Positions 1,915-45,312 of a DNA stretch of 64,000 bases are shown here, in pieces. The stretch lies in assembly GCA_964406745.1 (NCBI GenBank), contig CAYOSX010000001.1, positions 57-64,056 on the forward strand, in the 5' to 3' direction. The position numbers and the translations under genes are program-made. This DNA is from an uncultured Opitutus sp. Its GTDB lineage: Bacteria > Verrucomicrobiota > Verrucomicrobiia > Opitutales > Opitutaceae. The stretch's first letter is position 1. Each line of letters opens with the position of its first letter. The notes beneath the pieces were generated by a model. It was not told where the DNA came from and made no database searches. It saw only the letters and a list, made by a program, of their open reading frames with translations.

Positions 1915-4038
1915 TCAATCCTCTGCCGCGCGTGGATCAAGCGCGTCGCGCACCATGCTCAGCAGCATGTCGACCGAGAACGGCTTCGGCAGGAAGCCGG
2001 CGAGCCCGCGTCCGGCAAAGCGGTCGATGATCGCCTGCTCGTTGAAGCCCGAGGTGAGGATGACGCGAAGCTGCGGGTTGAGCGCACGCATGCGTCGGAG
2101 CGCCTCCTCTCCGTCGAGGCGCGGCATGGTGAGGTCGAGCAGAACGATGGCGTAGCGTTGCGGGTTGAGGCGTACACGATCGACCCCTTCCTGTCCGTCG
2201 ACTGCCTGCTCCACCTCGAAGCCGGCCCTAACAAGGGCGGCGGTGGCGAGCTCGCGGACGGCGCGCTCGTCGTCGACCACCAGGGCGATGCCTTTTCCGG
2301 TCCACGATTTCTTGGACGTGGCCGGCGGAGGAACGGCCGGACTGAGGGGATCGCCGGTCGCGGGCAGAACGATCTTGAAGGTCGAACCCTTGCCGCGATC
2401 GCTGTAGACTTTGATGGCTCCCTTGTGGCCGTGGACGATGCCGAGCACCGCCGCGAGTCCGAGTCCGCGTCCCGTGAATTTCGTGGTGAAGAAGGGCTCG
2501 AAAATGCGGGCCTTGGTTTCTGCGGTCATGCCTTCGCCCGTATCGCTCACCTCGAGCATGAGGTAGTCGCCGGGTTCGAGGTGGTCGGAGAACGCCATGC
2601 TTTGGAGGTACTCCTGGGTGGCGTGCAGGCGTCCGGTCTGCACATTGATGACTCCCGGGTGCTCGCCCAGGGCTTCAGACGCGTTGATGACGAGGTTCAT
2701 CACGATCTGGCGAATCTGGTTGGCGTCTCCTTGGAAGGACGGAAGGCTTGGGGCCAGATGACACTGAAGGTCCGCCTTCTTGCTTACAGAGGCGCGGAGA
2801 AGGGGGACCGTTTCCTCGATCAGGCGGCTGAGATCGAGCGGCTCAACGAGGAATCGACCCTTGCCGGCGTAGGCGAGCAGTTGCTTGCATAATTCAGCCG
2901 CCCGCAAGGAGGCTTGCTCCACGTATCCAAGCGCGAGGTTGGCCTGGTCCTGGGACGGTTGCAGCTCGAGACGGGCAAGGCTGGCGTTGCCGAGGATGCC
3001 GGTGAGCAGATTGTTGAAGTCGTGGGCGATGCCGCCCGCGAGCACGCCGAGGCTTTCGAATTTCTGGGTTTCCTGCATCCGGCGCTCGAGGGCGAGACGG
3101 TCGCGTTCGGCGCGGCGTTGGGCGGAGAGGTCCTGAAACGTCGCGAGGCAGCCGCGGGCCCTGCCGGCCTCATCGCGAAGAGGGACGGCGTTGACGAGCA
3201 GTTCGATGCGCCGCCCGTCGGCGTGAACCACCGTTTCAACGAAGTTGAGCAGAGGCTCGTTCTCCGCGGCCGCGCGCTGCATGGGCAGCTCGTGGGGTTT
3301 CAGGATGCGGCCGCCCTGTTCGACGTGGAAGTGTTGCGGGGCATCATTGCCCGGAGCGGTGAGGGAAACGTTGGCGCCGCGCGAGACATCGAGCATTTCC
3401 GCAAAGGCGCGATTGGTGCGGATGGTCGTGCAATTGGCGTCCTCTGCGATGCCGACTCCGACGGGCAGCAGATCGAAGAGCGCCTGCACCTCGTCGATGC
3501 GTTCGTGCAAGGAGGCGTTGAGGCGGAGGACCTGCGCTTCGGCCTCTTGGCGAGAGCGTACCTCCGCGGTGAGCCGTTCGTTGGCGGCGGTGAGGTCGGC
3601 GGTGCGTTCGCGCACACGATCTTCCAAGGCCGTATTCAACCTTCGAAGGTCCTCCTGGCTTGGGAGGTTGAGGGCCAGGGGGGCGATGCGGACCAACGTG
3701 ATGGCCGTCGCGAGGGAGATCAGCGCGGTGATCGCCTTGGCGCCTCCTGACCACCAATAATGAGGCTGCCAAAGGGACCATACTTCGAGCAGATGGGTTG
3801 TCCCGCATGCGACGATGAAAGCCCCGAACATGAGGAAGACCCCGCGGAAGGGCATATCCCGCCGCTTGCGGACAAAGTGGAGCAGGATCAGCGGAATTGA
3901 ATAGAACGCCAGGCCGATCACCGTGTCAGACACGGCGTGGAGGATGACGAGCCTGCTGTCCCATTCCGAATCACCTTCGGACAATCTGAAGAGACTCGCG
4001 CTGAAGGGACTGAGCCATGTGGGTGACGGCGCCGGCAC
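1915..4038 (-). CDS. Hybrid sensor histidine kinase/response regulator with N-terminal ethylene-binding-domain-like membrane module
   Basis: 707 aa. Three N-terminal TM helices with an ETR1-like FGAFIVACGTTH motif, then a coiled coil and a PAS-like region. HisKA (AHDFNNLL), HATPase (DTGEGM, GRGLGLA) and a C-terminal receiver (VVDDE...LLDLTMP...KPF) follow. GTG start at 4038. Confidence 0.9.
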   Translation of the reverse strand: MPAPSPTWLSPFSASLFRLSEGDSEWDSRLVILHAVSDTVIGLAFYSIPLILLHFVRKRRDMPFRGVFLMFGAFIVACGTTHLLEVWSLWQPHYWWSGGAKAITALISLATAITLVRIAPLALNLPSQEDLRRLNTALEDRVRERTADLTAANERLTAEVRSRQEAEAQVLRLNASLHERIDEVQALFDLLPVGVGIAEDANCTTIRTNRAFAEMLDVSRGANVSLTAPGNDAPQHFHVEQGGRILKPHELPMQRAAAENEPLLNFVETVVHADGRRIELLVNAVPLRDEAGRARGCLATFQDLSAQRRAERDRLALERRMQETQKFESLGVLAGGIAHDFNNLLTGILGNASLARLELQPSQDQANLALGYVEQASLRAAELCKQLLAYAGKGRFLVEPLDLSRLIEETVPLLRASVSKKADLQCHLAPSLPSFQGDANQIRQIVMNLVINASEALGEHPGVINVQTGRLHATQEYLQSMAFSDHLEPGDYLMLEVSDTGEGMTAETKARIFEPFFTTKFTGRGLGLAAVLGIVHGHKGAIKVYSDRGKGSTFKIVLPATGDPLSPAVPPPATSKKSWTGKGIALVVDDERAVRELATAALVRAGFEVEQAVDGQEGVDRVRLNPQRYAIVLLDLTMPRLDGEEALRRMRALNPQLRVILTSGFNEQAIIDRFAGRGLAGFLPKPFSVDMLLSMVRDALDPRAAED

Positions 4039-4195: not shown

Positions 4196-4726
4196 TTAGC
4201 GGAAGTCGACCAACTCCACATCGAAGACGAGGGTCGCCTTCGGCGGGATTTTGCCGCGAATCCCTTTTTCACCGTAAGCCAGCCAGTAGGGGATGATCAG
4301 CGTTCGCTTCTCGCCTTTCTTCATGGTGAGAAAGGCTTCGTCCCATCCGGCGATCACCTTGCCTGCACCCACTTGAAAATTGAGCGGACCGTTCCCTTCG
4401 TCGTGACTGCTGTCGAACGGCACGCCGTCGATGAACCAAGAGTCGTAGTGGGCAGTGACCCATTGTCCGCGTGAAGGAGTCTCCTCGCCGGATCCCGCCT
4501 CACGAACGACGTACCTCATCCCGCGCGGTGTTTCGCGCGCGCCCGGATACTTCTTGGCGATCAGCATCAGGTCGCGATCTGGCCAAAGGTGAACCCCGAG
4601 TGCCTCGCGCATGGCACTGTTGATCGGGAGGCCAGGATCCTTCCGCGCGTAGGCGCCGGAGCGAACCACAAAGGCGAGGGTGATCAACGCCACTCCAAGG
4701 AACGCGAGGACGAAAAAGTTGCGCAT
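4196..4726 (-). CDS. FKBP-type peptidyl-prolyl cis-trans isomerase, N-terminally membrane-anchored or exported
   Basis: Hydrophobic N-terminus followed by an FKBP domain (FDSS...PL.F.VG.G.VI.GWDE....M..GEKR.L.IP..LAYG...IPP.A.L.F.VEL). Confidence 0.9.
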   Translation of the reverse strand: MRNFFVLAFLGVALITLAFVVRSGAYARKDPGLPINSAMREALGVHLWPDRDLMLIAKKYPGARETPRGMRYVVREAGSGEETPSRGQWVTAHYDSWFIDGVPFDSSHDEGNGPLNFQVGAGKVIAGWDEAFLTMKKGEKRTLIIPYWLAYGEKGIRGKIPPKATLVFDVELVDFR

Positions 4727-5200: not shown

Positions 5201-8200
5201 TCAGGGGATGCGCAAGGACGTGCCGACGACGAGCACGTTGGGATTGGCGATGACCTCGCGGTTCGCCTCGAGGATCTCCATCCATCGATTGGCGGTGCCA
5301 TAATAACGCCGGGAAATGGCGCTAAGCGAATCACCTGAAGCGACCGTGTGGGTGCGCGGTCCCGAGGCTTCCGTCGGCGCGGGAGGAGGCAGGGTCTCTG
5401 CAGGTTGAGGCGCCGGCGAGGTGGTCGCCAGTGCGGCTGACGGCGTTCCGGGGCGGGTCGGCGCACCCAACGAAGAAGCGGGCGAAGGTCCCGACACTGT
5501 CAGCCGCGTCCGAAGTTGCTGGACCTGGGCGGCCAGAACGGAGGACTGCGCCTGGGTCTGGCGAAGTTGCTCGCGCAGCAGGGCGACTTCACCCGACGAG
5601 TCCGAAGCCGAGCTGCGGGTCGAATCCAGCTCCTGTTGAGCCGCGGCAAGGGCCTGGGCGCGCGATTCGGCCAGTTCACTGGCCGAGGCGAGTTGGGAGC
5701 GAAGGTTTTCAATTTCCTCACGGGAGGAGGATTCGCTGGCGGCCTGCGGGCGAAGCGATTCGAGTTCGGCGCGGGCCTGCTCGAGCGCGGCGGCGGCGTT
5801 CTCGCGCTCCGAATTGACGGCGGTCAGTGCCGTCTGGAGGCGTCCGATCTCGGACTCGCGGACGGTGTAGGCGCGGAGACTGGTGGCCAGGCGGCCTTGC
5901 GTATCCGCAAGTTGAGTACGAAGGGATTCAAGGTCGGTGGAGGAGGCATCCGTTGCGGGCGCCGGTTGGGAGCGTGCGGATTCCAACTGGCTCCGCGATT
6001 CCTCGAGCTGGCGCGCAAGGGCGTCACGCTCCGCGGTCACACTGGCGAGTTCTGAACGCAGTCCGGACATATCCGGTGCAGCCTGAACCTGGCTGGCGGA
6101 TTGCCGCACCTGTTCGAGCTCCCGGTTGACAGCGGCCAGCTCCCGCTGGCGTTGATTGGCCTGGTCTTCGGCGGCCTGCAACCGGCTGGACAAACCTGCG
6201 ACCTGGCGGGTGAGGCGATCGCGCTCATCGGCGATGGAGGAAGTTTGGTTTTTCAGGCGTGAAAATTCCGCCTCCTGCGTCCGTGCCGCGGTGAGGGCGC
6301 TCTCGGCCTGCTGCTGCGTACGCTCCAGCTCGCGCATGGCCTGCTGGACGGAAGCATTCTGCTGTTGGAGTTCGGCACGTTCGGCGCGGAGGCGCTCCGC
6401 GCTGGCGCGTGCGGCGTCGAGTTCCGTCTTGCCAGCGGAGATCTCCGCAGCGAGGCGGTCACGCTCCTCGCGAAGCTTGGCCAGTTCGCTCTGCGAGGAG
6501 GACGTGGCCGCCTGACGGGCCTCGGCGACGGCTTGCGTCAGTCGGTTGCGTTCGTTCTCCGAATTACCGAGGGCTGTCCGGAGTTCACTGACCTCGTTGT
6601 CCTTTTGCGCGGACTTTTGGCGAAGGTCGGCCATCTGCTGGTTCAGCGAGGCAACCTGTTCGCGCAGTGCGGTGGTGGCGGCGGCTTCGGAAGGGGCATT
6701 TGCGCGCGCGGTGGCGAGTGCTTCGCGGGCTTCCTGCAAGGACCGTTCGAGGGCGTCGCGTTCGGAGGTCAGGCGGCTGGACGTGTCGTTGGCGGCGGTG
6801 AGTTGGTTGCGAAGGTCGGTGGCTTCGCGTGTGGCTGCGGCGAGTTGCCGGGCGGCGTCTCCCGCGGATGCAGCGCCAGCCCTGGCTTGGGCGAGTTCGT
6901 TTTCGAGCGTGGAGACCCGTTGTTCGGCGGCGGCGAGCTGGCTGCGGACGTTCCCCAGCATTTCGGCTTGGCTGGCGGACGCCTCGATTTGCTGGCGCAA
7001 CGTGGCGGCCTCCGCTTCGAGGCGGGCAAGCGAGCTGCGGGTGTCGGTGAGCTCGCGTGAGCTGGTCGCGGCGAGATTGCGGGTTGTGGTCAGTTCCGCG
7101 CGGGCCTGGTCCAGCTGGCTTTGCACCTGTGCGAGGGAGGTGGCGCCGGAGCCTGCGGCCTGTCGGGCGTCTTGCAGGGCCGCCTGCGATTCAGCCAGGA
7201 GACGCGTCTGTTCGGCGAGGCGCTGCTCGAGGGATGCGAATTCGGTGGAGGCGTCGCGTGCCGAGGCGCGGAGGCTGGCCAATTCCTCAGTGGATCGACG
7301 GGCGGCCTCGGCCGCTTCCGCTGCGCGCGTATCGGCGGCTTCGCGTGCCGTGTTGGCTTGGGCAATTGCGTCGCGCGCGGAGGCGACCTCTCCGGCGAGA
7401 GCCTCGGCTCGGGCCCGTTCCTGTTCGATTGTGGCCAGTAAGGATTCGACATTGGCGGCGTTCGAGCGGGACTGGGACTGAGACGCTAAGGACTGGGCGG
7501 TGCGCAAACGGTCCACCTCGGCTTGCGCGCTGAGGGCGGCATCGCGCCATTGGCTGACCTGGCCCTGCAACGGTGCCAGTTCGGAAGCGTTGGCGGATAC
7601 GCGGGCCACCTCCTCGCGGGCTTCCTGCAATTGACGAGCGAGAGAGTCGCGTTCGGCCTGCGACCGGAGGAGGGAGTCGCGCAGGGCCTCGGCCTGCGTC
7701 GAGGCCTCGTTTACGCGGTTCTGCACGGCTTCCAGTTCGGCGCGGGCCCGGGCGAGTTCGGCCTGGGCATCAATGGTCGGCTTGGGTGCGTTTCCGTCGC
7801 CGACGTTGATGGTGGGGACCGCGCTGGAGGCAGGGGCGGCGTCAGCGGGAGAAGGAACCGGGGAGACGATCGGGGCCGGCCGGACGATGGATGCCGGCCG
7901 TGGCCGCATGAAGACATTGGGACGTCGCTCATCGAGCCGGCGTTTACCTTCCGCGAGTTCCGCGGGCGTCAGCTGTTCGACCAGCGTGGCGAGCGCGCGG
8001 CCCGTGGTGCCGTTCTCGGCGGCGATCATCAACCAAACGTAGGCCTCAAGCTTGTCGTGGACGGCTTCGCGGGGATCGGCGTAGATCAAGCCAAGGTTAT
8101 ATTGGGCGACAAAGTTGCCGTCCTCCGCTTTCTGTCGGAGCGAGGCAACTTCGTCTGCGGATGCCGCCGGCAGCGAAGAGGAGCCAATCCCTGCGAGAAG

Positions 8201-8254
8201 TCCGGCAAAGAAAAGAAGGGTCGTGACAGCGGATCGGAATCGAGGGGCGTTCAT
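5201..8254 (-). CDS. Exported Sel1-repeat / long coiled-coil / C-terminal LysM protein
   Basis: ATG at 8254 gives the signal peptide MNAPRFRSAVTTLLFFAGLLAG...AASA. A Sel1-like motif (AEDGNFVAQYNLGLIYAD) follows, then ~750 aa of A/E/Q/R/L/S-rich heptad-like sequence and a Pro-rich linker. A LysM domain (HTVASGDSLSAISRRYYG...W..I..AN) closes the protein. The ORF-track start at 8530 is an unsupported extension. Confidence 0.8.
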   Translation of the reverse strand: MNAPRFRSAVTTLLFFAGLLAGIGSSSLPAASADEVASLRQKAEDGNFVAQYNLGLIYADPREAVHDKLEAYVWLMIAAENGTTGRALATLVEQLTPAELAEGKRRLDERRPNVFMRPRPASIVRPAPIVSPVPSPADAAPASSAVPTINVGDGNAPKPTIDAQAELARARAELEAVQNRVNEASTQAEALRDSLLRSQAERDSLARQLQEAREEVARVSANASELAPLQGQVSQWRDAALSAQAEVDRLRTAQSLASQSQSRSNAANVESLLATIEQERARAEALAGEVASARDAIAQANTAREAADTRAAEAAEAARRSTEELASLRASARDASTEFASLEQRLAEQTRLLAESQAALQDARQAAGSGATSLAQVQSQLDQARAELTTTRNLAATSSRELTDTRSSLARLEAEAATLRQQIEASASQAEMLGNVRSQLAAAEQRVSTLENELAQARAGAASAGDAARQLAAATREATDLRNQLTAANDTSSRLTSERDALERSLQEAREALATARANAPSEAAATTALREQVASLNQQMADLRQKSAQKDNEVSELRTALGNSENERNRLTQAVAEARQAATSSSQSELAKLREERDRLAAEISAGKTELDAARASAERLRAERAELQQQNASVQQAMRELERTQQQAESALTAARTQEAEFSRLKNQTSSIADERDRLTRQVAGLSSRLQAAEDQANQRQRELAAVNRELEQVRQSASQVQAAPDMSGLRSELASVTAERDALARQLEESRSQLESARSQPAPATDASSTDLESLRTQLADTQGRLATSLRAYTVRESEIGRLQTALTAVNSERENAAAALEQARAELESLRPQAASESSSREEIENLRSQLASASELAESRAQALAAAQQELDSTRSSASDSSGEVALLREQLRQTQAQSSVLAAQVQQLRTRLTVSGPSPASSLGAPTRPGTPSAALATTSPAPQPAETLPPPAPTEASGPRTHTVASGDSLSAISRRYYGTANRWMEILEANREVIANPNVLVVGTSLRIP

Positions 8255-8396
8255 GGCTGAAATGGTCGGGAGTCTTCGAATGTGCGGGCGGTTTGCAACG
8301 TTGCTCGTCGCAGCGCGGGCGCGGGTGCAAAGTTGGGCAAAAGGTTGAAACCTCGGCAATCCAGCGATGTCCTGTTGAGAGGGAAACTTTGAAACC

Positions 8397-9104
8397 ATGA
8401 AAACGCTCGCGCTCTGTCTTGGACTTGCCGCACTCGCCATCGTTCCTGCCAGCCAGGCGCAGGTATTTCGTCCCGAAACGGTGCGGGGAGCCGTGGTCGG
8501 CGGGATTGTTGGCGCCGTGGTCGGCCACAACGACGGGCGGCATGGTTGGGAAGGCGCGGCGTACGGCGCGGCGGCCGGGGCGTTGATCGGTTCGTTCGTC
8601 GGCGAGTCCCGCGAGCGCCATCTGCCTCCGGTTCCTCGCTACCAGTCGGGCTACTCCCGTACGTATCGTGAACCGCTTTGGCATCGTCACCCGGGATGGG
8701 CTTATGAGCGCCGGGATGACCGTTGGATCCGCCGGCCGTATCGCGGTCCGGTGGGCGTGTATCAATATTATGGTTACGATCGCCATCGCATCCGGACGGA
8801 CCATGCAACCCGGGGGCTGCTGATCGGTGGAGCGCTCGGAGCGATCATCGGGCACAACAATGGCCGCCGGGGCTGGGAAGGCGCGGCGTATGGCGCGGGG
8901 GCCGGCTGGCTGGCGGGTACGCTGGCCGATCGTGCGGGCGCTCGTCGTGAGCAGGAGCATCGTGCGTGGATTGAGGAGGGGTGGGAAAGCGTGCGTCGGG
9001 AATCACCTGCCCAGGCGCAGCCGGCGGTGATTCATCATCATCACTACTACGGCTCGGGCGCCCGCGGCGTGATGGGCGAAGCCAACGGACTTTTCGGCCG
9101 TTGA
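8397..9104 (+). CDS. Exported glycine-zipper repeat protein with His/Tyr-rich C-terminus
   Basis: Signal peptide MKTLALCLGLAALAIVPASQA. Two ~40-aa copies of RG..(V/I)GG..GA..GHN.GR.GWEGAAYGA.AG are separated by an R/Y/H/W-rich spacer. C-terminal HHHHYYG. Confidence 0.7.
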   Translation: MKTLALCLGLAALAIVPASQAQVFRPETVRGAVVGGIVGAVVGHNDGRHGWEGAAYGAAAGALIGSFVGESRERHLPPVPRYQSGYSRTYREPLWHRHPGWAYERRDDRWIRRPYRGPVGVYQYYGYDRHRIRTDHATRGLLIGGALGAIIGHNNGRRGWEGAAYGAGAGWLAGTLADRAGARREQEHRAWIEEGWESVRRESPAQAQPAVIHHHHYYGSGARGVMGEANGLFGR

Positions 9105-9124
9105 ACCGGCGGCGTATCTTTTTC

Positions 9125-9784
9125 ATGCGTACTCGCAGCCCTTCCATGACTTACCCATTCCATTCGAAGTGTTACCCGGTGGCGATCGCGGCGCTGGCGG
9201 TCTTGCTGTCGGGAGGGTGCGCCAGCCAAGGCGTGCGCAATCCGTCCGGTGTTCCGGTGACCGAAATGGGCGCCGACGAACGTGGATTCGTCGCAGGTAC
9301 CGGCGTCGAGTCTCAGGACTTGGTGGCCGTGACTGACCGGATGGCACGCAGTATTCTCGGCATTCCTGCCATTGCACAGGCGTCCAAGCCGCCCGTCGTG
9401 GCGATCGATCCCGTTGTCAACGAGACGAGGTTTCCAATCAACAAGGACATCTTCCTCACCCGCATTCGCACGCAGCTGAACTCGCGTGCGGCCGGCCGGG
9501 TGAGTTTTCTGGCGAGGGAAAACATGCGTGCGCTCGAGCGTGAGCGGCAGTTAAAGCAGGACGGCCTCGTGACGGCGTCGGCGGATCCCCACCAGGTCGA
9601 GTTTCTTGGGGCCGACTACTTCCTCACGGGAAAACTGCAGGGGATCTCAACGCGGACGAGTCAGGGCGTCAGCGACTACATTCTCTACAGCTTCCAGCTC
9701 ATCGACGCGCGCACCAGCGTGATCGTCTGGGAGGATATGGCGGAGATCAAGAAGCAGGGCCTTGAAGATGCCGCCTACCGCTAA
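9125..9784 (+). CDS. LpoB-like (COG3417-type) lipoprotein
   Basis: Lipobox LLSGGC. Body resembles the penicillin-binding-protein activator LpoB/YcfM family (V.N.T...I....F...I...L......F......DY.LTGK...I......Y.L.......D.RT..IVWE). ATG at 9125 chosen within the longer ORF. Confidence 0.7.
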   Translation: MRTRSPSMTYPFHSKCYPVAIAALAVLLSGGCASQGVRNPSGVPVTEMGADERGFVAGTGVESQDLVAVTDRMARSILGIPAIAQASKPPVVAIDPVVNETRFPINKDIFLTRIRTQLNSRAAGRVSFLARENMRALERERQLKQDGLVTASADPHQVEFLGADYFLTGKLQGISTRTSQGVSDYILYSFQLIDARTSVIVWEDMAEIKKQGLEDAAYR

Positions 9785-9803
9785 TCCGCACCGAGAATCC
9801 GCC

Positions 9804-10223
9804 ATGCACTCTTTCTTTTCCCTTTTCCTGATCGCGTCGTTAATGCTGGTGGTGGCCGGATGTCAGGCTCCGCCGGGACCGTTTGCGCCGCAGGACACCA
9901 CGCGGTACACGCTCGAAAACACGGAGCGTTTTGTCCTCATGGACGAGCAGGTCCAGACTTCGGTCACCTGCACGGGGCTTCAGGAATTCGTGCGGCCGGC
10001 GGATGGTCACCTTGAGGTGGTGGCCAACGTGAAAAATCGCGAAGCCCGGCGCATCCAGGTGCAGATTAGTTGTGTGTTCAAGGACGAGCAGGGGTTTTCC
10101 ACCGGAGACGAGACTCCGTGGCAAACGCTCATCCTGGGCGAGAACGCCACTGAAGCTGTCCGCTTTTCTTCCATGAATGATCGCGCCCGCAGCTACACGA
10201 TTCGCGTGCGGCAGGCGCGCTAA
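9804..10223 (+). CDS. YcfL-like (DUF1425) lipoprotein
   Basis: Lipobox VVAGC. ~125-aa mature beta-rich domain with the G.L.V...V.N......V...C.F.D..GF pattern of the YcfL family. Lies directly after the LpoB-like gene, and ycfL-lpoB adjacency is known in E. coli. Confidence 0.6.
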   Translation: MHSFFSLFLIASLMLVVAGCQAPPGPFAPQDTTRYTLENTERFVLMDEQVQTSVTCTGLQEFVRPADGHLEVVANVKNREARRIQVQISCVFKDEQGFSTGDETPWQTLILGENATEAVRFSSMNDRARSYTIRVRQAR

Positions 10224-12541: not shown

Positions 12542-12729
12542 GCTCGTAGGGCGATTCTTATTGGGACGTGTCCGCCGGATCCAGCAGGGAACCGCTCGAC
12601 GCGATCGGGACGTAACGTTCGTTGGAGATTGCGCTTCAAGCGTCCGCGATTCACTTGGAGCGGTCTCGTCCTGGCATCGTAACCGTCGGGCCGGCCCGTG
12701 TCCCGCACCCAAGCTTACTTTCTTTCCGC

Positions 12730-14982
12730 ATGCTGCCGTTCGCCCTGTCGATCTTCACCGGAGCGTTTCTGCTATTCCAAGTCCAGCCGCTGATCGGCAA
12801 GTTCATCCTTCCTTGGTTCGGAGGGAGTCCTGGGGTCTGGACGACCTGCATGCTTTTCTTCCAGACCGTCCTGCTTGCCGGTTATGCCTATGCGCACGTG
12901 ACGTCGCGGTGGTTGCGGCCGCGTCAGCAGGCGGTGGTTCATCTGGCCTTGCTGGTACTGGCAGTGGTGTTGCTGCCGATTGCTCCGTCGGAGTCGTGGA
13001 AACCCATCAATGGCGGCAATCCTTCCGTGCGGATTTTGCTCCTGTTATCGGCGACGCTGGGATTGCCTTACTTTGTATTGTCTTCGACCGGCCCCCTGAT
13101 GCAGCGCTGGTTCAGCCTTTCGCATCCGGGTCGTTCACCGTACAGGCTCTACGCGCTTTCCAACATCGGCTCCTTGCTCGCGTTGGTGAGCTATCCGTTC
13201 GTGTTTGAGCCCGCTCTTTCCCGGCAGCAGCAAGCAGCAGTATGGTCCATCGGTCTCTGCGTGTTTGCCGTTGTGTGTGCAATCTGCGCGTTCCGGGTGA
13301 GGCGGGTGGCGGAGGTGAGCGAGTCTTTGGCGGACGACGATGCCGGGCAGACGCCCGATGCGCCCCCCAGTGTCTTCAATCGATTTCTCTGGCTGGCGCT
13401 TCCGGCGACGGCCTCGGTCCTGTTGCTCGCAACCACGAACAAGCTGTGTCAGGACGTCGCCGTCATTCCATTCTTGTGGGTGCTCCCGCTGGCGCTTTAT
13501 CTGTTGAGCTTCATTGTCTGCTTTGACCACGCCCGCTGGTACCGGCGCGATGTCTTTGGAGGCCTGTTCATCTTGGGCGCTGCAGTGGTGGCTTATCTAT
13601 TCTATGCGGAGCACTCCGCGCCGCTGGTGGTTCAGATCTCCGGCTATTCCGCGACCTTGTTTTTCGCATGCATGATCTGCCATGGCGAAGTCTACCGTCT
13701 CAAACCTTCGGTGCGGCGGCTGACCGGATACTATCTCATGATTGCGGCCGGAGGTGCGTTGGGTGGTTTCCTCGTGGCGGTGGTCGCACCGCTGGTTTTC
13801 AGCCATTATATCGAGTTGCAGATTGGATTGTGCGTCCTCGCCTATCTCCTCGGCATCATCGTGCTTCGTGACGAAAGTCGGGAGGCGGCTTGGGGCGTGG
13901 TCGCCGGGGTGGTGGCGGCCGCGGTGCTTGTGCCGCTGTTGTCGGCGTCGTTCTGGAAGCTTTACTTCGGCGAAATGCTTGCGGCTTATCCGGAATACTA
14001 TCGCGAGCACTGGAAGGAGGCGTTGCTCGTGACTGGCGTTACGCTTTTGTGCTTTGGCGACCTCCGCCGCGGCCTTTCGCGCAGCTGGCAACCGCGAATG
14101 GGCGGCTACATCATGTTCGTTACGCTCGGGCTCGGCTTGCTGTTTGTCGTGCAGCTTCATCAGACAAGCCGTCAGGTGGTGAGTGCGGAGCGCAACTTCT
14201 ACGGGTTGCTCAAGGTCGTGCAGTACAACGCAGATGATCCTCGCATTCATTATTTCTCACTCGTCCATGGCGGGATAACCCACGGCTTGCAGTTCACCGA
14301 TCCGATCATGGCGACGCTGCCAACGACCTATTATGGCGAGACGAGCGGGGTAGGTCGGGCGCTCAAACAAATGTGGCGGGCGGAGGGACGGCGAATCGGT
14401 CTGGTGGGCCTCGGCACCGGTTCACTGGCGGCCTATGGCGAAGAGGACGATTATTTTCGGATCTACGAGATTAACCCCGAAGTAGAACGCCTTGCGCGAA
14501 CGCGATTCACCTACCTCGAATCGAGCGAGGCCAGCGTTGACGTGATCATGGGCGATGCGCGCGTCTCGATGGAACGCGAGGCGAAGTTGGGCGATCGCCA
14601 ACGGTTTGACCTGCTGGCCCTGGATGCGTTTAGCAGCGATGCGATTCCTGTTCACCTCCTTACGGCGGAGGCGTTCGAAGTCTACCTTGAACACCTCAAG
14701 CCTGACGGAGTGATTGCCGTGCATATCTCAAACCGGTACCTCGACCTCTATCCCGTGGTCGACAATCTGGCCGGACACTTTGGCCTCCGCGTTGTGTACA
14801 TCGCGGACGACTCCGAGGAAGAGTGGTGGAACTACCGGACGTCGTGGATGCTGCTCTCGCGCAATCAGGAGTTTCTCGATTTGCCTGAGATTGGAGGGGT
14901 GGCCAGCGCGCCAGAGGCCCGGGAACGGCCGGTGAAATTATGGACAGATGATTACGCCAGTCTGTTTGACGTGTTGCGATAG
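12730..14982 (+). CDS. Fused multi-pass membrane (MFS-like) / spermidine-synthase-like protein
   Basis: ~500 aa of TM helices followed by a SpeE-like SAM-fold domain (GLVGLGTGSLAAYG...IYEINPEV...D.LALDAFSSDAIPVHL.T.EAF...L.P.GV.AVH). ATG at 12730 chosen within the ORF that starts at 12622. Confidence 0.8.
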   Translation: MLPFALSIFTGAFLLFQVQPLIGKFILPWFGGSPGVWTTCMLFFQTVLLAGYAYAHVTSRWLRPRQQAVVHLALLVLAVVLLPIAPSESWKPINGGNPSVRILLLLSATLGLPYFVLSSTGPLMQRWFSLSHPGRSPYRLYALSNIGSLLALVSYPFVFEPALSRQQQAAVWSIGLCVFAVVCAICAFRVRRVAEVSESLADDDAGQTPDAPPSVFNRFLWLALPATASVLLLATTNKLCQDVAVIPFLWVLPLALYLLSFIVCFDHARWYRRDVFGGLFILGAAVVAYLFYAEHSAPLVVQISGYSATLFFACMICHGEVYRLKPSVRRLTGYYLMIAAGGALGGFLVAVVAPLVFSHYIELQIGLCVLAYLLGIIVLRDESREAAWGVVAGVVAAAVLVPLLSASFWKLYFGEMLAAYPEYYREHWKEALLVTGVTLLCFGDLRRGLSRSWQPRMGGYIMFVTLGLGLLFVVQLHQTSRQVVSAERNFYGLLKVVQYNADDPRIHYFSLVHGGITHGLQFTDPIMATLPTTYYGETSGVGRALKQMWRAEGRRIGLVGLGTGSLAAYGEEDDYFRIYEINPEVERLARTRFTYLESSEASVDVIMGDARVSMEREAKLGDRQRFDLLALDAFSSDAIPVHLLTAEAFEVYLEHLKPDGVIAVHISNRYLDLYPVVDNLAGHFGLRVVYIADDSEEEWWNYRTSWMLLSRNQEFLDLPEIGGVASAPEARERPVKLWTDDYASLFDVLR

Positions 14983-40989: not shown

Positions 40990-42102
40990 ATGTTCAACGA
41001 ACTTCAACGCCTGACGCTACCCCACATCGAGCGCCTGCATGCCTATACGCCGGGCGTGCAACCGACCGAACCGGGCTGGGTGAAGCTCAACACCAATGAG
41101 TGTCCGTATGCTCCGAGCCCGCGCGTCGCCGAGGCGATCCGACGAGAGCTCGGCAATGACGGTGAAAGCCTCCGCCTTTATCCGAATCCACGGAGCGCCC
41201 CCTTGCGACAGTTGATCGCGCGCCTGCATGGCATCACGGAGGACCATGTTATCATTGGCAACGGTTCCGATGATGTGCTGAACCTGCTCGTACGCTGCTT
41301 TGCCGGTCCGCAGGCGGCGGCGGGATATACGTTTCCAAGCTACTCGCTCTACCCGGTGCTGATCGCGATTCAGAATGGTGCCTTCCGGACCATCGAGTTC
41401 AGCCGCGAGATGACGCTGCCGGTCGAGGCGATCGTCAATTCCCAGGCGCCCGTTTTTTTTCTCACTTCGCCCAACGCACCCACCGGAGTCGGTTTCACCC
41501 AGGAGCAGCTTTCCAGCGTGCTGTCACGGTACAAGGGTATGCTGGTGGTGGACGAGGCCTACGCTCCGTTTGCGCGGGAGAATGCCGTGCCGCTCCTCTC
41601 GAGGCACCCACGCCTGGTGATCACGCGGACACTCTCCAAGGCGCATGCACTTGCGGGTATCCGTGTGGGCTACGCTCTGGGGCATCCCGATGTGATTGAT
41701 CTGCTCGATCGGGTACGCGACAGCTACAACGTGAACCGTCTTTCCCAAGCGGCCGCCTTTGCTGCGCTCAGCGATCCGGGTTATTACGACGCGATCATTG
41801 GCAAGATTGTACGGACACGCGATTACTGGCTCGGCGAATGGACCGGCCGTCGCGGATGGTTCGCCTATCCGTCGGAAGCCAACTTCATCTTTACGGAGCC
41901 GCGCGATCTCTCAGGCCGTGCTGGACCGGATGTTGCCAAGGATCTCTATACCTTCCTGTTGTCGCGCAAGATCCTCGTGCGGTACTTCCCGAGCCACGCC
42001 TTGACCGCAACCTTCCTCCGCATCAGCGTCGGCACCGACGATGAAATGCTCGCCGTCAATGAAGCCTTCGACGCATGGCAACAGAACGCAAAGCAACGCT
42101 GA
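40990..42102 (+). CDS. hisC: Histidinol-phosphate aminotransferase (cytoplasmic, no signal peptide)
   Basis: [23 protein letters not shown] and [15 protein letters not shown] (PLP Lys) motifs. Located between hisD and hisB. Confidence 0.93.
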
Positions 42103-42768: not shown

Positions 42769-43902
42769 TCAGGTTTTGCCGAGAATTCGTGAGAGCTCGC
42801 CGAGGAACATGTCCATCTGCTCTTTCGTGCCGATGCTCACGCGGCACCAGTTGCCGTAGGTCCCCTCCGGCACGCCGCTCTCGCGCGTGCTGCCGATGAG
42901 GATGTTGGCCTCGCGCATTTTTGCGTTCAGTTCACGGCCGGGGATGCCGGCGTGAAAATAGATGAAGGCGCCTTGAGGGTTCTTCACGTAGTCGATGCCC
43001 ATCTTGGCGAACTCGGCGCAGACGTAGTTGCGAACATCGGAGTAATTCCTGCGGTTCATTTCGAGGTGGGCTTCGTCCTTCAACGCCTCCTGCGCCGCGA
43101 TGGCGGCGAGGAAGCTCGGGCCGCTGGTCGAGAACTCGGCCAGCCTGTCGAGCACCTCAGGATGCCCCATCCCGTAGCCGAAACGCAGCCCGGCCATGCC
43201 GTGGCCCTTCGAGAAGGTACGGGTCACCAGCAGGTTTTTCCTCACGTTTACCAGCGGAGCCATGGTGTTGGCCTTCAACCCGCTGTCCGCGATCTCCAGG
43301 TAGGCCTCGTCGACGAACACGAGGATGTGTTGCGGCACCGACATGATGAAACGCCGCAGTTCGGCCGGATCGGCCAGCGTGCCGGTCGGATTGTTCGGAT
43401 TGCAGATGTAGACGATGACGGTGTTGTCGTCGATCTCGCGGGCCAGCGCCTTGAAGTCGTAGCCCATGTCGGCGCCGAGCGGCGCGAATTTCACGTCGCC
43501 GCCACGTTGCTCGAACCGATTGATGAGCGAGGTGTAACCCATGGCGGTGGTGACCACATTCTTGCCCGGTTTCGCATAGGCGAGTGCGGTGAGCGAGAGG
43601 AGCGGGCCGGATCCCGCGGTGGTCATGATGTGGTTTTCTTTCACGCCGTTGTAGGCGGCGCAGAGTTTGATGAACTCCGAGATCTCATCGCGGTTGTAGT
43701 AGTTGCCTGTCGAAATTTCCGACGTGAGGCGTTCGAGGGCCTTGGGCGAGAAGCCCCAGACGTTTTCGTTACTGCTGATCTTCACCTTGCCATCAATCTT
43801 GACCGGCTGGGCATGGAGCAGGGTGGCGGGAATAAACGTGGTGGCGGACATGAGCGCGGCGCAGGTCAGGCGGCGGGCGAGGGTGGATCGGAGCGTATTC
43901 AT
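42769..43902 (-). CDS. Exported HisC-family PLP aminotransferase, paralogue 1
   Basis: ATG at 43902 gives MNTLRSTLARRLTCAALMSATTFIPATLLHA/QP (signal peptide containing an RR pair). SSNEN, YICNPNNPTG, VDEAYLE and RTFSKGHGMAGLRFGY motifs are present. Confidence 0.85.
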   Translation of the reverse strand: MNTLRSTLARRLTCAALMSATTFIPATLLHAQPVKIDGKVKISSNENVWGFSPKALERLTSEISTGNYYNRDEISEFIKLCAAYNGVKENHIMTTAGSGPLLSLTALAYAKPGKNVVTTAMGYTSLINRFEQRGGDVKFAPLGADMGYDFKALAREIDDNTVIVYICNPNNPTGTLADPAELRRFIMSVPQHILVFVDEAYLEIADSGLKANTMAPLVNVRKNLLVTRTFSKGHGMAGLRFGYGMGHPEVLDRLAEFSTSGPSFLAAIAAQEALKDEAHLEMNRRNYSDVRNYVCAEFAKMGIDYVKNPQGAFIYFHAGIPGRELNAKMREANILIGSTRESGVPEGTYGNWCRVSIGTKEQMDMFLGELSRILGKT

Positions 43903-43946
43903 AGGGAGTGTATCGATTTTATGGATCAGATCGACGCTCCCCATCG

Positions 43947-43961
43947 AGCACCGGATATGCC
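43947..43961 (-). promoter_or_regulatory. Candidate sigma54 (-24/-12) promoter of paralogue 1
   Basis: Minus strand reads GGCAT-ATCCG-GTGCT. The GG-N10-GC spacing matches TGGCAC-N5-TTGC exactly. Lies ~45 nt upstream of the ATG at 43902. Confidence 0.5.
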
Positions 43962-44020
43962 GCGTCCGCGGTCGCCGCCGTGCAAAGAAATCATACCGCG
44001 ATCTTCTTTTTCATGGCACG

Positions 44021-44046
44021 AAAAAGGGCCGGTCAGTGACCGGCCC
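44021..44046 (-). terminator. Rho-independent terminator after paralogue 2
   Basis: Minus strand: gggccggtc-act-gaccggccc followed by TTTTT, 30 nt downstream of the stop at 44077. Confidence 0.7.
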
Positions 44047-44076
44047 GGAAGGAGCAGGACAGACTCTGATGAAGGC

Positions 44077-45198: not shown

Positions 45199-45250
45199 AG
45201 TGGTGAAGGTCCAGGCTTGCGGGGCGCACGGCCGGGATGCGTAGCGAGGG

Positions 45251-45265
45251 AGCACCCGGTGTGCC
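45251..45265 (-). promoter_or_regulatory. Candidate sigma54 (-24/-12) promoter of paralogue 2
   Basis: Minus strand reads GGCAC-ACCGG-GTGCT with correct spacing, ~53 nt upstream of the ATG at 45198. Confidence 0.5.
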
Positions 45266-45312
45266 GGCTGCCCGCGGGCACGGAGGAAAAAAACTAATGC
45301 GATGCTCCGGAA

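What the first reader, a model, noticed from the sequence alone, without database searches (positions are those of the whole stretch)
3664..3957. Histidine kinase carries an ethylene-binding-domain (ETR1-like) membrane module with the Cu-ligand Cys and His intact
Residues ~28-125 of the 707-aa hybrid kinase read ...AVSDTVIGLAFYSIPLILLHFVRKRRDMPFRGVFLMFGAFIVACGTTHLLEVW...AKAITALISLATAITLVRIAP. From memory, Arabidopsis ETR1 helices 1-3 read [52 protein letters not shown]...AKVLTAVVSCATALMLVHIIP. The match is nearly colinear. It includes the Asp of helix 1, the SIP(L) motif, and the Cys/His pair that ligates Cu(I) for ethylene binding (Cys codon at 3805-3807, His codon at 3793-3795 on the minus strand). 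Downstream, the plant GAF domain is replaced by coiled coil-PAS-HisKA-HATPase-REC. Ethylene-binding domains are experimentally characterised in plants and a few bacteria (Synechocystis SynEtr1), and have only been predicted in other phyla. This would therefore be a candidate ethylene or small-olefin sensor in a non-cyanobacterial lineage.
Basis: partly seen in the sequence, partly recalled or inferred. Interest (0 to 1): 0.65.

Follow-up and report, generated by a model that had tools for sequence, protein, structure and literature searches.

The report
Ethylene-receptor-type sensor kinase in Opitutaceae
This soil/freshwater bacterium (Verrucomicrobiota, Opitutaceae) encodes a signalling kinase whose membrane part belongs to the same copper-dependent ethylene-binding domain family as the plant hormone receptor ETR1, but such bacterial domains are already catalogued in thousands and one with the same layout has been proven to bind ethylene, so this is a fairly ordinary new member with one unusual substitution.

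Summary
ORF 1915-4038 (-) encodes a 707-aa hybrid histidine kinase. Residues 30-125 match Pfam PF25487 (ETR1_N, ethylene receptor N-terminal domain) end to end (E=4e-39, 133 bits, cutoff 27). Cys78, His82, Asp38 and Lys101 are in register with ETR1 Cys65, His69, Asp25 and Lys91. The downstream kinase and receiver motifs are intact.

The novelty is low. The family has about 7,800 cluster representatives in public data. The gene is a syntenic, vertically inherited ortholog across Opitutaceae. AzoEtr1 of Azospirillum brasilense (ethylene-binding domain-PAS-kinase) was shown in 2025 to bind ethylene, so the premise "only predicted outside cyanobacteria" is outdated.

- The "essential" Tyr32 position is Phe45 here. 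Phe occurs in 0 of 148 representatives, 0 of 80 genome loci and only the two nearest relatives.
- The pre-helix motif PHGxCxxW, present in about 95% of bacterial ethylene-binding domains, has been substituted away.

The domain is nevertheless under strong purifying selection (dN/dS 0.02-0.10).

Best reading: a Cu(I)-dependent ethylene or small-alkene sensor feeding a phosphorelay, possibly with altered affinity. Family membership is about 0.97; ethylene binding itself about 0.6. Verdict: new member of a known kind, interest about 0.3.

The parts
1915..4038 (-). Complete CDS of the 707-aa hybrid sensor histidine kinase (GTG start at 4038).
   Evidence: ORF list. The N-terminus upstream of Leu19 is conserved at protein level in relatives L004 and L003, which supports the GTG start. 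GC3 of 0.79 is typical of genes in this window.
3961..3987 (-). Residues 18-26, 'RLSEGDSEW'. This is the colinear remnant of the pre-helix-1 motif PHGxCxxW of bacterial ethylene-binding domains. Pro, His, Gly and Cys are all substituted and only the Trp is kept. There is no Cys anywhere in residues 1-37.
   Evidence: The motif is present in 141/148 family representatives, 78/80 GTDB loci, AzoEtr1, Eleftheria and 77/95 Opitutaceae orthologs. It is absent in the window, P0001 and P0003-P0005.
3664..3951 (-). Ethylene-binding domain (Pfam ETR1_N), residues 30-125.
   Evidence: PF25487 E=4.1e-39, 133 bits, model 2-97/97. It is 48-49% identical to AzoEtr1, 55-56% to the plasmid-borne EBDs of Kovacikia (cyanobacterium) and Eleftheria (betaproteobacterium), and 56-69% to the best genome-collection EBDs, mostly cyanobacterial.
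3865..3957 (-). Predicted transmembrane helix 1 (residues 28-58). It carries Asp38 (3925-3927), Phe45 (3904-3906, the ETR1 Tyr32 position), Ile48 and Pro49 (3892-3897).
   Evidence: AF2 model, mean pLDDT 83, helix 28-58. Hydropathy peak near residue 44. Residue mapping.
3769..3849 (-). Predicted transmembrane helix 2 (residues 64-90). It carries Ile75 (3814-3816), the Cu(I) ligands Cys78 (3805-3807) and His82 (3793-3795), and Thr81.
   Evidence: AF2 helix 64-90. Cys and His are invariant in alignments A1-A3 and in 148/148 representatives.
3667..3759 (-). Predicted transmembrane helix 3 (residues 94-124). It carries Lys101 (3736-3738), the equivalent of ETR1 Lys91, the proposed polar-bridge partner of Asp25.
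   Evidence: AF2 helix 94-124. Lys is invariant in 148/148 representatives. The role of Lys91 is taken from PMC10266040.
3478..3663 (-). Cytoplasmic helical linker, putatively a coiled coil (residues 126-187), joining helix 3 to the PAS domain.
   Evidence: The AF2 helix continues from residue 128. The conserved 'LPS..L...N..LE' and 'TADL...N..L..E...R..AEAEV.RLN' stretch appears in the ortholog alignment.
3112..3477 (-). PAS domain (residues 188-309).
   Evidence: PF08448 PAS_4, E=1.1e-8, 35.7 bits against cutoff 23.1.
2866..3042 (-). HisKA dimerisation/phospho-acceptor domain (residues 333-391). The H-box 'AHDFNN' has His339 at 3022-3024.
   Evidence: PF00512, 26.3 bits (just under the 26.9 cutoff; the family hit is precomputed in the orthologs). 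H-box position.
2356..2730 (-). HATPase_c catalytic domain (residues 437-561) with N-box (448), G1 DxGxG (499), F-box (513) and G2 (523).
   Evidence: PF02518 E=8e-19. Motif positions.
1948..2283 (-). C-terminal receiver domain (residues 586-697): Asp589/Asp590, phospho-acceptor Asp635 (2134-2136), Thr662 and Lys685.
   Evidence: PF00072 E=4.4e-21. Motif positions.
4196..4726 (-). Upstream same-strand neighbour: a membrane-anchored or secreted FKBP-type peptidyl-prolyl isomerase. It is a syntenic partner of the kinase across Opitutaceae. A functional link is not shown.
   Evidence: PF00254. The gene order FKBP, EBD kinase, YgjP-like, metallophosphoesterase is conserved in L003, L004 and Nibricoccus aquaticus L085.

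Best explanation
The gene encodes a membrane-bound hybrid histidine kinase. Its N-terminal three-helix bundle is a genuine member of the ETR1-type ethylene-binding domain (EBD) family.

Proposed mechanism:
1. The protein is probably a homodimer held by the linker helix and the HisKA domain.
2. Cys78 and His82 of helix 2 hold one Cu(I) per monomer. Asp38 of helix 1 orients or polarises the His.
3. Ethylene, or a similar small alkene, diffuses into the membrane and binds the copper.
4. The change is passed through the Asp38-Lys101 polar bridge to helix 3, then down the helical linker and PAS domain.
5. This alters autophosphorylation at His339.
6. The phosphoryl group moves to Asp635 of the fused receiver, and from there probably to an unlinked Hpt protein or response regulator.

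What is shown here: family membership, register and conservation of the Cu/Asp/Lys residues, intact catalytic motifs, three predicted helices, purifying selection, and orthology across Opitutaceae.

What is inferred: copper loading, ethylene binding, the direction of the kinase response, and the downstream partners. These rest on analogy with ETR1, SynEtr1 and AzoEtr1.

Because the otherwise near-invariant Tyr (ETR1 Tyr32) is Phe here and the N-terminal PHGxCxxW motif is lost, the affinity or kinetics may differ from canonical EBDs.
For: - Family: Pfam ETR1_N at 133 bits, full model length.
- Register: ungapped alignment of helices 1-2 with AzoEtr1. AzoEtr1 was taken from its own database record, is 525 aa, and its D35 and C75 numbering matches the paper. 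Its residues 1-130 bind 14C-ethylene.
- Key residues: Asp38, Ile48, Pro49, Ile75, Cys78, Thr81, His82 and Lys101 are all conserved.
- Core conservation: 48 of 51 highly conserved EBD columns are retained.
- Fold: the AF2 model has mean pLDDT 83 with helices 28-58, 64-90 and 94-124.
- Kinase and receiver: H-box, N, G1, F and G2 boxes and the receiver Asp/Thr/Lys are intact.
- Selection: EBD dN/dS is 0.02 against the 96%-identical relative and 0.10 against the 85% relative.
- Orthology: conserved synteny as far as the cultured Nibricoccus aquaticus.
- Literature: roles of Asp25 and Lys91 and the Cys/His copper site are from PMC10266040.
Against: - One of the seven residues whose alanine substitution abolishes ethylene binding in ETR1 is not conserved. 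Tyr32 is Phe45 here. Phe was seen in 0/148 representatives, 0/80 genome loci, 0/39 short hits, and only 2/120 orthologs, the two nearest relatives.
- The PHGxCxxW motif upstream of helix 1 is absent.
- Among the orthologs, loss of this motif goes together with loss of the Tyr (7/18 against 0/77) and of the copper-ligand Cys (4/18 against 0/77). This hints that motif loss marks relaxed ligand-binding constraint. The comparison is not corrected for phylogeny.
- On the branch to the 85% relative, the EBD changed about three times faster than the kinase core.
- No binding assay, no copper-delivery gene and no cognate regulator is available in the window.
Confidence: 0.6

Rival explanations
1. Retuned sensor. 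The domain still holds Cu(I) through Cys78 and His82. The Tyr-to-Phe change and the loss of the PHGxCxxW segment have shifted its properties: much lower ethylene affinity or faster off-rate (as with the natural Asp25Asn variants), or a preference for another small unsaturated or Cu(I)-binding ligand.
For: - Phe45 is unique to this small clade.
- Motif loss.
- The sensor domain evolved faster than the kinase core on the recent branch, yet dN/dS stays at or below 0.10. This indicates a changed function that is still constrained.
- There is precedent that natural single-residue variants modulate affinity 100-fold without destroying function (PMC10266040, PMC11971883).
Against: Tyr to Phe is conservative, since only the hydroxyl is lost. 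Only Tyr32Ala has been tested, as far as the papers read here say. All residues proposed to contact copper are unchanged. No alternative ligand is known for any EBD.
Confidence: 0.22
2. Decaying sensor. The three-helix domain no longer binds a ligand. It serves as a membrane anchor and dimerisation module, while the cytoplasmic PAS domain perceives the real signal.
For: Some orthologs in the same family have clearly lost the copper ligands: P0087, P0092, P0105 and P0111 have Gly, Ala, Val or Leu at the Cys position. All of them also lack the N-terminal motif, as the window protein does. A PAS domain is available as an alternative input.
Against: Asp, Cys, His and Lys and 48 of 51 conserved columns are intact. 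EBD dN/dS of 0.02-0.10 is as low as in the kinase core. That is not expected for a mere anchor, where only hydrophobicity would be kept.
Confidence: 0.12
3. Copper or redox sensor. The Cys/His site reports Cu(I) availability or oxidation state in the membrane or periplasm and does not sense a gas.
For: The site is a Cu(I) site by homology. No olefin-related genes are nearby.
Against: There are no copper homeostasis genes nearby either. Every EBD tested so far binds ethylene. In known receptors copper is a stably bound cofactor.
Confidence: 0.05
4. Chance resemblance, or membership of an unrelated 3-TM sensor family.
For: None found.
Against: Pfam E=4e-39 over the full model. There are 5,838 family members at E<=1e-10. 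No competing Pfam family passes its cutoff; UPF0242 scores 19.5 bits against a cutoff of 33.5. No structural match to another family was found in the PDB.
Confidence: 0.01

Closest known systems
AzoEtr1 of Azospirillum brasilense Sp7 (PLoS Genet 2025, PMC11819568); sequence read here from NZ_CP012915.1 (L001:2935-4512)
   Same: - Same N-terminal three-helix EBD, 48-49% identical over residues 26-139.
- Same order of EBD, helical linker, PAS, HisKA, HATPase.
- The BLASTP alignment is colinear over 558 columns (28% identity, E=3e-45).
- Asp, Ile, Pro, Ile, Cys, His and Lys are conserved in both.
- It is a non-cyanobacterial bacterium.
   Different: - AzoEtr1 has no fused receiver. Its response regulator is a separate overlapping downstream gene. 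The window protein has a fused REC and no regulator within 64 kb.
- AzoEtr1 keeps the Tyr (Y42) and the 'LPHGVCLFW' motif. The window protein has Phe45 and 'RLSEGDSEW'.
- AzoEtr1 is experimentally proven to bind ethylene. This protein is untested.
Arabidopsis thaliana ETR1 (prototype ethylene receptor)
   Same: - Same domain family; the Pfam model is named after ETR1.
- About 38-40% identity in the EBD to my recalled ETR1 sequence.
- Equivalents of Asp25, Ile35, Pro36, Ile62, Cys65, Thr68, His69 and Lys91 are present.
- Overall logic of EBD, kinase and receiver.
   Different: - ETR1 has a GAF domain where this protein has linker plus PAS.
- ETR1 has Cys4/Cys6 disulfides at its N-terminus; this protein has no N-terminal Cys.
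- The Tyr32 position is Phe here.
- The loop between helices 2 and 3 is 3 residues shorter here.
- ETR1 signals through CTR1 and EIN2, which do not exist in bacteria.
- The ETR1 sequence used for alignment was recalled from memory. It was cross-checked only against eight published residue numbers.
SynEtr1 (Synechocystis slr1212) and GeiEtr1/GeiEtr2 (Geitlerinema) cyanobacterial ethylene receptors
   Same: - EBD followed by a histidine kinase that signals by phosphotransfer.
- GeiEtr2 also carries PAS and a C-terminal receiver (PMC6682694).
- The most similar EBDs outside Opitutaceae are cyanobacterial, at 56-67% identity.
   Different: - The cyanobacterial proteins add GAF or cyanobacteriochrome light-sensing domains.
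- They retain all seven key residues and, per the paper, one N-terminal Cys.
- The SynEtr1 sequence itself was not retrieved here.
Opitutaceae orthologs, e.g. Nibricoccus aquaticus CMV30_14720 (P0078) and Candidatus Didemnitutus (P0049)
   Same: - Same 5-domain architecture and length (about 700 aa), 50-96% identity.
- Same FKBP / kinase / YgjP / metallophosphoesterase gene order.

The separate 820-aa Horticoccus hit P0071 carries an extra PAS-type insert and was not checked for synteny.
   Different: Most orthologs (104/120) have the canonical D-Y-I-P-I-C-H-K set, and 77/95 have the PHGxCxxW motif. The window protein and its nearest relatives (P0001, P0003) do not.

Membership tests
ETR1-type ethylene-binding domain (Pfam PF25487, ETR1_N) | Significant full-length match to the curated family profile | tested here: met
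   133.2 bits against gathering cutoff 27, E=4.1e-39, model positions 2-97 of 97.
ETR1-type ethylene-binding domain (Pfam PF25487, ETR1_N) | Three N-terminal transmembrane helices | tested here: met
   AF2 helices 28-58, 64-90 and 94-124, mean pLDDT 83. Three hydropathy peaks near residues 44, 75 and 112.
ETR1-type ethylene-binding domain (Pfam PF25487, ETR1_N) | Cu(I) ligands Cys65 and His69 in helix 2, spaced CxxxH | tested here: met
   Cys78 and His82 fall in invariant alignment columns shared with AzoEtr1 C75/H79.
ETR1-type ethylene-binding domain (Pfam PF25487, ETR1_N) | Helix-1 Asp25 and helix-3 Lys91 (polar bridge, affinity and signal transmission) | tested here: met
   Asp38 and Lys101 are in invariant columns. 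Their roles are from PMC10266040.
ETR1-type ethylene-binding domain (Pfam PF25487, ETR1_N) | Remaining alanine-scan-essential residues Ile35, Pro36 and Ile62 | tested here: met
   Ile48, Pro49 and Ile75.
ETR1-type ethylene-binding domain (Pfam PF25487, ETR1_N) | Alanine-scan-essential Tyr32 | tested here: not met
   Phe45 occupies this position. Tyr is found in 146/148 representatives, 80/80 GTDB loci and 113/120 orthologs. Phe occurs only in the window, P0001 and P0003. The effect of Tyr to Phe, as opposed to Tyr to Ala, is unknown.
ETR1-type ethylene-binding domain (Pfam PF25487, ETR1_N) | Bacterial pre-helix-1 motif PHGxCxxW. This is an empirical feature seen here, not part of the Pfam model or of published definitions. 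| tested here: not met
   The window has the colinear 'RLSEGDSEW'. The motif is present in 141/148 representatives and 78/80 GTDB loci.
ETR1-type ethylene-binding domain (Pfam PF25487, ETR1_N) | Saturable, copper-dependent ethylene binding | not testable with these tools
   This needs a 14C-ethylene binding assay on the expressed domain, as done for SynEtr1 and AzoEtr1.
Hybrid sensor histidine kinase (HisKA/HATPase_c + REC) | H-box His; N, G1, F and G2 boxes; receiver Asp-Asp, phospho-acceptor Asp, Thr and Lys | tested here: met
   His339, N-box 448, DTGEG 499, FEPFF 513, GRGLGL 523, Asp589/590, Asp635, Thr662 and Lys685. Pfam HATPase_c and Response_reg are above cutoff; HisKA scores 26.3 against 26.9.
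CckA / VirA-like named kinases (NCBIfam equivalogs) | Score above the curated equivalog cutoff | tested here: not met
   The best hits score 271 bits against cutoff 647 (VirA-like) and 269 against 1000 (CckA). They cover only the PAS-kinase-REC core. The 'CckA' labels given by some sources are core-domain similarity only.

The most novel reading that the evidence does not exclude
The window's small clade (window, P0001, P0003) is a natural experiment in the ethylene-binding site. It has replaced the near-invariant Tyr32-equivalent by Phe and erased the N-terminal PHGxCxxW segment. It still keeps the Cu(I) ligands, Asp and Lys under strong purifying selection. Across the orthologs, loss of the motif co-occurs with loss of the Tyr and of the copper-ligand Cys. 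The undescribed PHGxCxxW segment may therefore be a functional part of the bacterial ethylene or copper site, for example a periplasmic Cu(I)-entry or lid element. This clade may sense ethylene with markedly different affinity, or sense another ligand.
Probability: 0.2. Interest if true: 0.5.

Novelty: new member of a known kind. Interest (0 to 1): 0.3.

Why it matters
If the protein binds ethylene, functional ethylene perception would extend to Verrucomicrobiota. These are abundant soil, rhizosphere and freshwater polysaccharide degraders. I found no mention of ethylene receptors for them in the searchable literature. It would add to the view that ethylene is a widespread inter-kingdom gas signal. 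That view already rests on cyanobacteria, Azospirillum and a mycorrhizal fungus.

In practice the canonical ortholog in the cultured Nibricoccus aquaticus is a better test subject. The window's Phe45, motif-less variant would serve as a natural comparison for what Tyr32 and the N-terminal motif contribute. By itself the finding changes no concept. The domain family, its bacterial spread and the EBD-PAS-kinase layout are all known.

Tried and rejected
- **PDB sequence search with the N-terminal 140 aa.** It returned only a chance hit to the vasopressin receptor (E=0.38). No EBD transmembrane domain is held in this PDB copy.
- **Foldseek of the AF2 model against the PDB.** Nothing scored below E=1, so there is neither structural confirmation nor any competing fold family.
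- **Exact-sequence lookup of the window protein.** It is not on record. The window's own species was also not among the best GTDB matches, where the best EBD identity was 69%. The organism can therefore be placed only as Opitutaceae-like, from homolog names and shared synteny.
- **Homolog search with the EBD alone.** It returned only 41 short fragments. These helped as an alignment but not for taxonomy.
- **Papers not held.** Lacey & Binder 2016 and Wang et al. 2006 could not be read. The 'seven essential residues' are cited second-hand through PMC11819568 and PMC6682694. No Tyr32Phe data were found.
- **Search for partners in the window.** I looked for a cognate regulator, an Hpt protein, a second kinase or EBD, and for copper or ethylene-related genes in all 64 kb. 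None was found; the rest is housekeeping.
- **Promoter and terminator scan around the gene.** No sigma-70-like site was found and nothing useful emerged.
- **'CckA' and 'VirA-like' names.** Rejected because scores are far below the NCBIfam cutoffs.
- **Frameshift or wrong start as the cause of the missing motif.** Rejected. The segment is colinear, has the same length as in the orthologs, and is conserved in an independent metagenome contig.
Full report
**1. Observation**

The window carries a 707-aa ORF at 1915..4038 on the minus strand. Cys78 is encoded by tgc at 3805-3807 and His82 by cat at 3793-3795, as stated.

A Pfam scan puts residues 30-125 in PF25487, 'Ethylene receptor 1-like, N-terminal domain'. 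The score is 133.2 bits (gathering cutoff 27), E=4.1e-39, covering model positions 2-97 of 97. The domain is followed by:
- PAS_4 at residues 188-309
- HisKA at 333-391
- HATPase_c at 437-561
- a receiver at 586-697

**2. Register with validated receptors**

I avoided relying only on a remembered ETR1 sequence. I fetched AzoEtr1 from the Azospirillum brasilense Sp7 replicon NZ_CP012915.1. The ORF is 525 aa. Its Asp35 and Cys75 match the numbering of the D35A and C75A mutants in the paper that demonstrated 14C-ethylene binding by residues 1-130 (PMC11819568).

The window protein aligns to AzoEtr1 without gaps through helices 1 and 2. In the table below, the AzoEtr1 numbers other than D35 and C75 were counted by hand from the sequence, not from a tool output. 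The ETR1 numbers marked 'published' are as given in the finding and the papers read.

| Window | AzoEtr1 | ETR1 |
|---|---|---|
| Asp38 | D35 | D25 (published) |
| Phe45 | Y42 | Y32 (published) |
| Tyr46 | Y43 | F33 (from my recalled sequence) |
| Ile48 | I45 | I35 (published) |
| Pro49 | P46 | P36 (published) |
| Ile75 | I72 | I62 (published) |
| Cys78 | C75 | C65 (published) |
| Thr81 | T78 | T68 (published) |
| His82 | H79 | H69 (published) |
| Lys101 | K98 | K91 (published) |

The published ETR1 numbers fix the spacing by themselves. Tyr32 lies three residues before Ile35, and three residues before Ile48 in the window stands Phe45. The ETR1 sequence I used was recalled from memory. It agrees with eight published residue numbers but was not checked against a database copy.

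Six of the seven residues whose alanine substitution abolishes ethylene binding are conserved. So are the more recently described Asp-Lys pair and Thr (PMC10266040). The seventh, Tyr32, is Phe.

**3. Structure and catalytic competence**

An AlphaFold2 model built on 34 sequences has mean pLDDT 83. It shows three long helices (28-58, 64-90, 94-124) that continue into a cytoplasmic helix from residue 128. Hydropathy peaks agree with this.

No EBD transmembrane domain is held in the PDB copy searched here. Accordingly, neither the sequence search nor the fold search found anything meaningful. This also means no competing fold family turned up.

The kinase H-box (His339), the N, G1, F and G2 boxes, and the receiver residues (Asp589/590, Asp635, Thr662, Lys685) are all present. 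NCBIfam hits to CckA and VirA-like kinases cover only the PAS-kinase-receiver core and lie far below their cutoffs. The 'CckA' names given by some sources are therefore not to be taken literally.

**4. Who has it**

The full-length protein has hundreds of relatives at 50-96% identity with the same domain set. Those with names are Opitutaceae or Verrucomicrobiota: Nibricoccus aquaticus, Horticoccus, Candidatus Didemnitutus and Opitutaceae bacterium EW11. Each already carries the precomputed PF25487 label.

The gene order FKBP-type isomerase, EBD kinase, YgjP-like metallopeptidase, metallophosphoesterase is conserved in three places:
- an 85%-identical relative
- a 96%-identical relative
- the complete genome of Nibricoccus aquaticus at 56% identity

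This is therefore a vertically inherited chromosomal ortholog. In the two close relatives it lies a few genes from yidC-rnpA-rpmH. The remainder of the window is housekeeping: EF-G, SecY, RpoA, GuaA, HisD, citrate synthase, PdxJ, RecD2, NadB, PanC and MlaDE. Near-identical DNA occurs in groundwater, runoff, soil and sediment metagenomes.

**5. How big the family is**

The N-terminal 140 aa were scored against 1.84 billion cluster representatives. This gave 7,831 proteins at E<=1e-3 and 5,838 at E<=1e-10, with lengths from 173 to 1,951 aa.

A single peptide pattern, FI[VFL][AG]CGTTH, hit at least 598 confirmed loci in one-genome-per-species GTDB contigs. The best 80 are mostly Nostoc and other cyanobacteria, plus Opitutaceae, Pseudomonadota, a deltaproteobacterium and an Acidiferrales MAG.

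Plasmid and chromid records add Azospirillum, Rhizobium, Novosphingobium, Blastomonas, Rhodovastum, Eleftheria (Betaproteobacteria) and Deinococcus.

The literature already states that putative ethylene receptors occur in several bacterial phyla. It has now shown function in Azospirillum. I found no paper mentioning them in Verrucomicrobiota.

**6. What is unusual here**

Two features set the window protein apart from almost all relatives.

(a) Phe45 at the Tyr32 position. Tyr is found in:
- 146/148 representatives
- 80/80 GTDB loci
- 39/39 informative short hits
- 113/120 orthologs

Phe occurs only in the two nearest relatives, P0001 (96% identity) and P0003 (88%). The 85% relative has Tyr.

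(b) Loss of the PHGxCxxW motif. Bacterial EBDs carry this conserved segment just before helix 1, outside the Pfam model. It is present in:
- 141/148 representatives
- 78/80 GTDB loci
- AzoEtr1, as 'LPHGVCLFW'
- Eleftheria

The window has 'RLSEGDSEW' at the colinear position, with the same length. The motif was therefore lost by substitution and not by a frameshift or a wrong start. An independent metagenome contig encodes the same N-terminus.

The Cys in this motif is probably the single N-terminal Cys that PMC6682694 suggests could form a dimer disulfide. The window protein has no Cys before helix 1.

Among the 95 orthologs with a complete N-terminus:
- The Tyr is lost in 7/18 that lack the motif and in 0/77 that have it.
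- The copper-ligand Cys is lost in 4/18 that lack the motif and in 0/77 that have it.
- Fisher p is 3e-6 and 1e-3 respectively. These are not phylogeny-corrected, so they are only indicative.

**7. Is the domain still constrained?**

Yes. 48 of 51 columns that are at least 85% conserved in the family are retained. The exceptions are Phe45, His54 and Ser88.

EBD dN/dS is 0.02 against the 96% relative and 0.10 against the 85% relative, similar to the kinase core.

Against the 85% relative, however, the EBD is the less conserved part: 78% identity against 90-92% for PAS, kinase and receiver. Against Nibricoccus it is the most conserved part: 66% against 47-58%. The sensor domain therefore went through a burst of change on the recent branch and is now again under purifying selection.

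**8. Interpretation**

The best-supported reading is a Cu(I)-dependent ethylene or small-alkene sensing hybrid kinase. It would work like AzoEtr1 and SynEtr1. The steps are:
1. The gas binds at the Cys78/His82 copper site, tuned by Asp38.
2. The signal passes through Lys101 and helix 3 into the helical linker and PAS domain.
3. His339 autophosphorylation changes.
4. The phosphoryl group transfers to Asp635.
5. An unlinked partner is reached. No regulator, Hpt protein or second kinase lies within 64 kb.

I put family membership at about 0.97 and actual ethylene binding at about 0.6. The rivals are:
- a retuned sensor, 0.22
- a decaying sensor used as an anchor with PAS as the input, 0.12
- a copper or redox sensor, 0.05

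Only a binding assay can separate them.

**9. Novelty and score**

Its premise of novelty is outdated:
- The domain family is curated in Pfam.
- The domain is present in thousands of bacterial proteins.
- It has been experimentally validated in a proteobacterium with the same EBD-PAS-kinase layout.

This is a new member of a known kind. It belongs to a phylum for which I found no mention of ethylene receptors in the searchable literature. It has a small clade-specific twist that could serve as a natural variant for structure-function work. Interest is about 0.3.

Noticed in passing
window 3961-3987 (-) and homologs P0006-P0030, L001, L002: Bacterial ethylene-binding domains carry a strongly conserved segment, 'F-M-P-H-G-x-C-Y-L-W', immediately before helix 1 and outside the Pfam ETR1_N model. 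It is present in about 95% of representatives. I saw no description of it in the papers read. Its His and Cys could be a periplasmic copper-handling or dimerisation element. Its loss correlates with loss of the Tyr32 and Cys65 equivalents among Opitutaceae orthologs.
   Followed up: partly
P0087, P0092, P0105, P0111 (homologs, not in the window): Some Opitutaceae orthologs with the same 5-domain architecture have lost the copper-ligand Cys (Gly, Ala, Val or Leu). One has also lost the His. The domain evidently decays in some lineages while the kinase persists.
   Followed up: partly
window 5201-8530 (-): A 1,109-aa Ala/Gln/Glu/Arg-rich protein that reads like a long low-complexity, coiled-coil-type protein. 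It has a C-terminal LysM domain and only weak, below-cutoff Pfam hits to eukaryotic coiled-coil families. It is syntenic in relatives (978 aa in L003, at least 954 aa in L004) but absent from this position in Nibricoccus. Function unknown; possibly a peptidoglycan-anchored structural protein.
   Followed up: partly
window 8397-9104 (+), 8981-10223 (+): A Gly-rich ORF is followed by LpoB-like and DUF1425 lipoprotein-type genes. The syntenic gene in relative L003 carries Gly-zipper (YMGG/OmpA-type) Pfam hits. The same trio is conserved in L003. It is an envelope-related cluster next to the LysM protein.
   Followed up: no
window 42769-46428 (-): Three tandem class I/II aminotransferase paralogs (391, 392 and 371 aa) lie head to tail. 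A histidinol-phosphate-type aminotransferase (40990-42102) and hisD sit just upstream on the other strand.
   Followed up: no
window 12622-14982 (+): A 786-aa ORF with gene-like codon usage (GC3 0.72) has no Pfam match at E<=1e-5.
   Followed up: no
window ~14000-38000: GC content drops to 0.56-0.59, against 0.62-0.68 in the flanks. The stretch holds fusA (EF-G), secY and rpoA. I took the short ORFs between them to be the ribosomal-protein operons but did not scan them. The drop looks compositional and typical of such highly expressed genes, not a sign of foreign DNA.
   Followed up: partly
window 4196-4726 (-): A 176-aa FKBP-type peptidyl-prolyl isomerase with a hydrophobic N-terminus always sits directly upstream of the EBD kinase on the same strand, from the window to Nibricoccus. 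The intergenic gap is 158 bp here. Co-transcription or a role in folding the receptor is possible but untested.
   Followed up: partly
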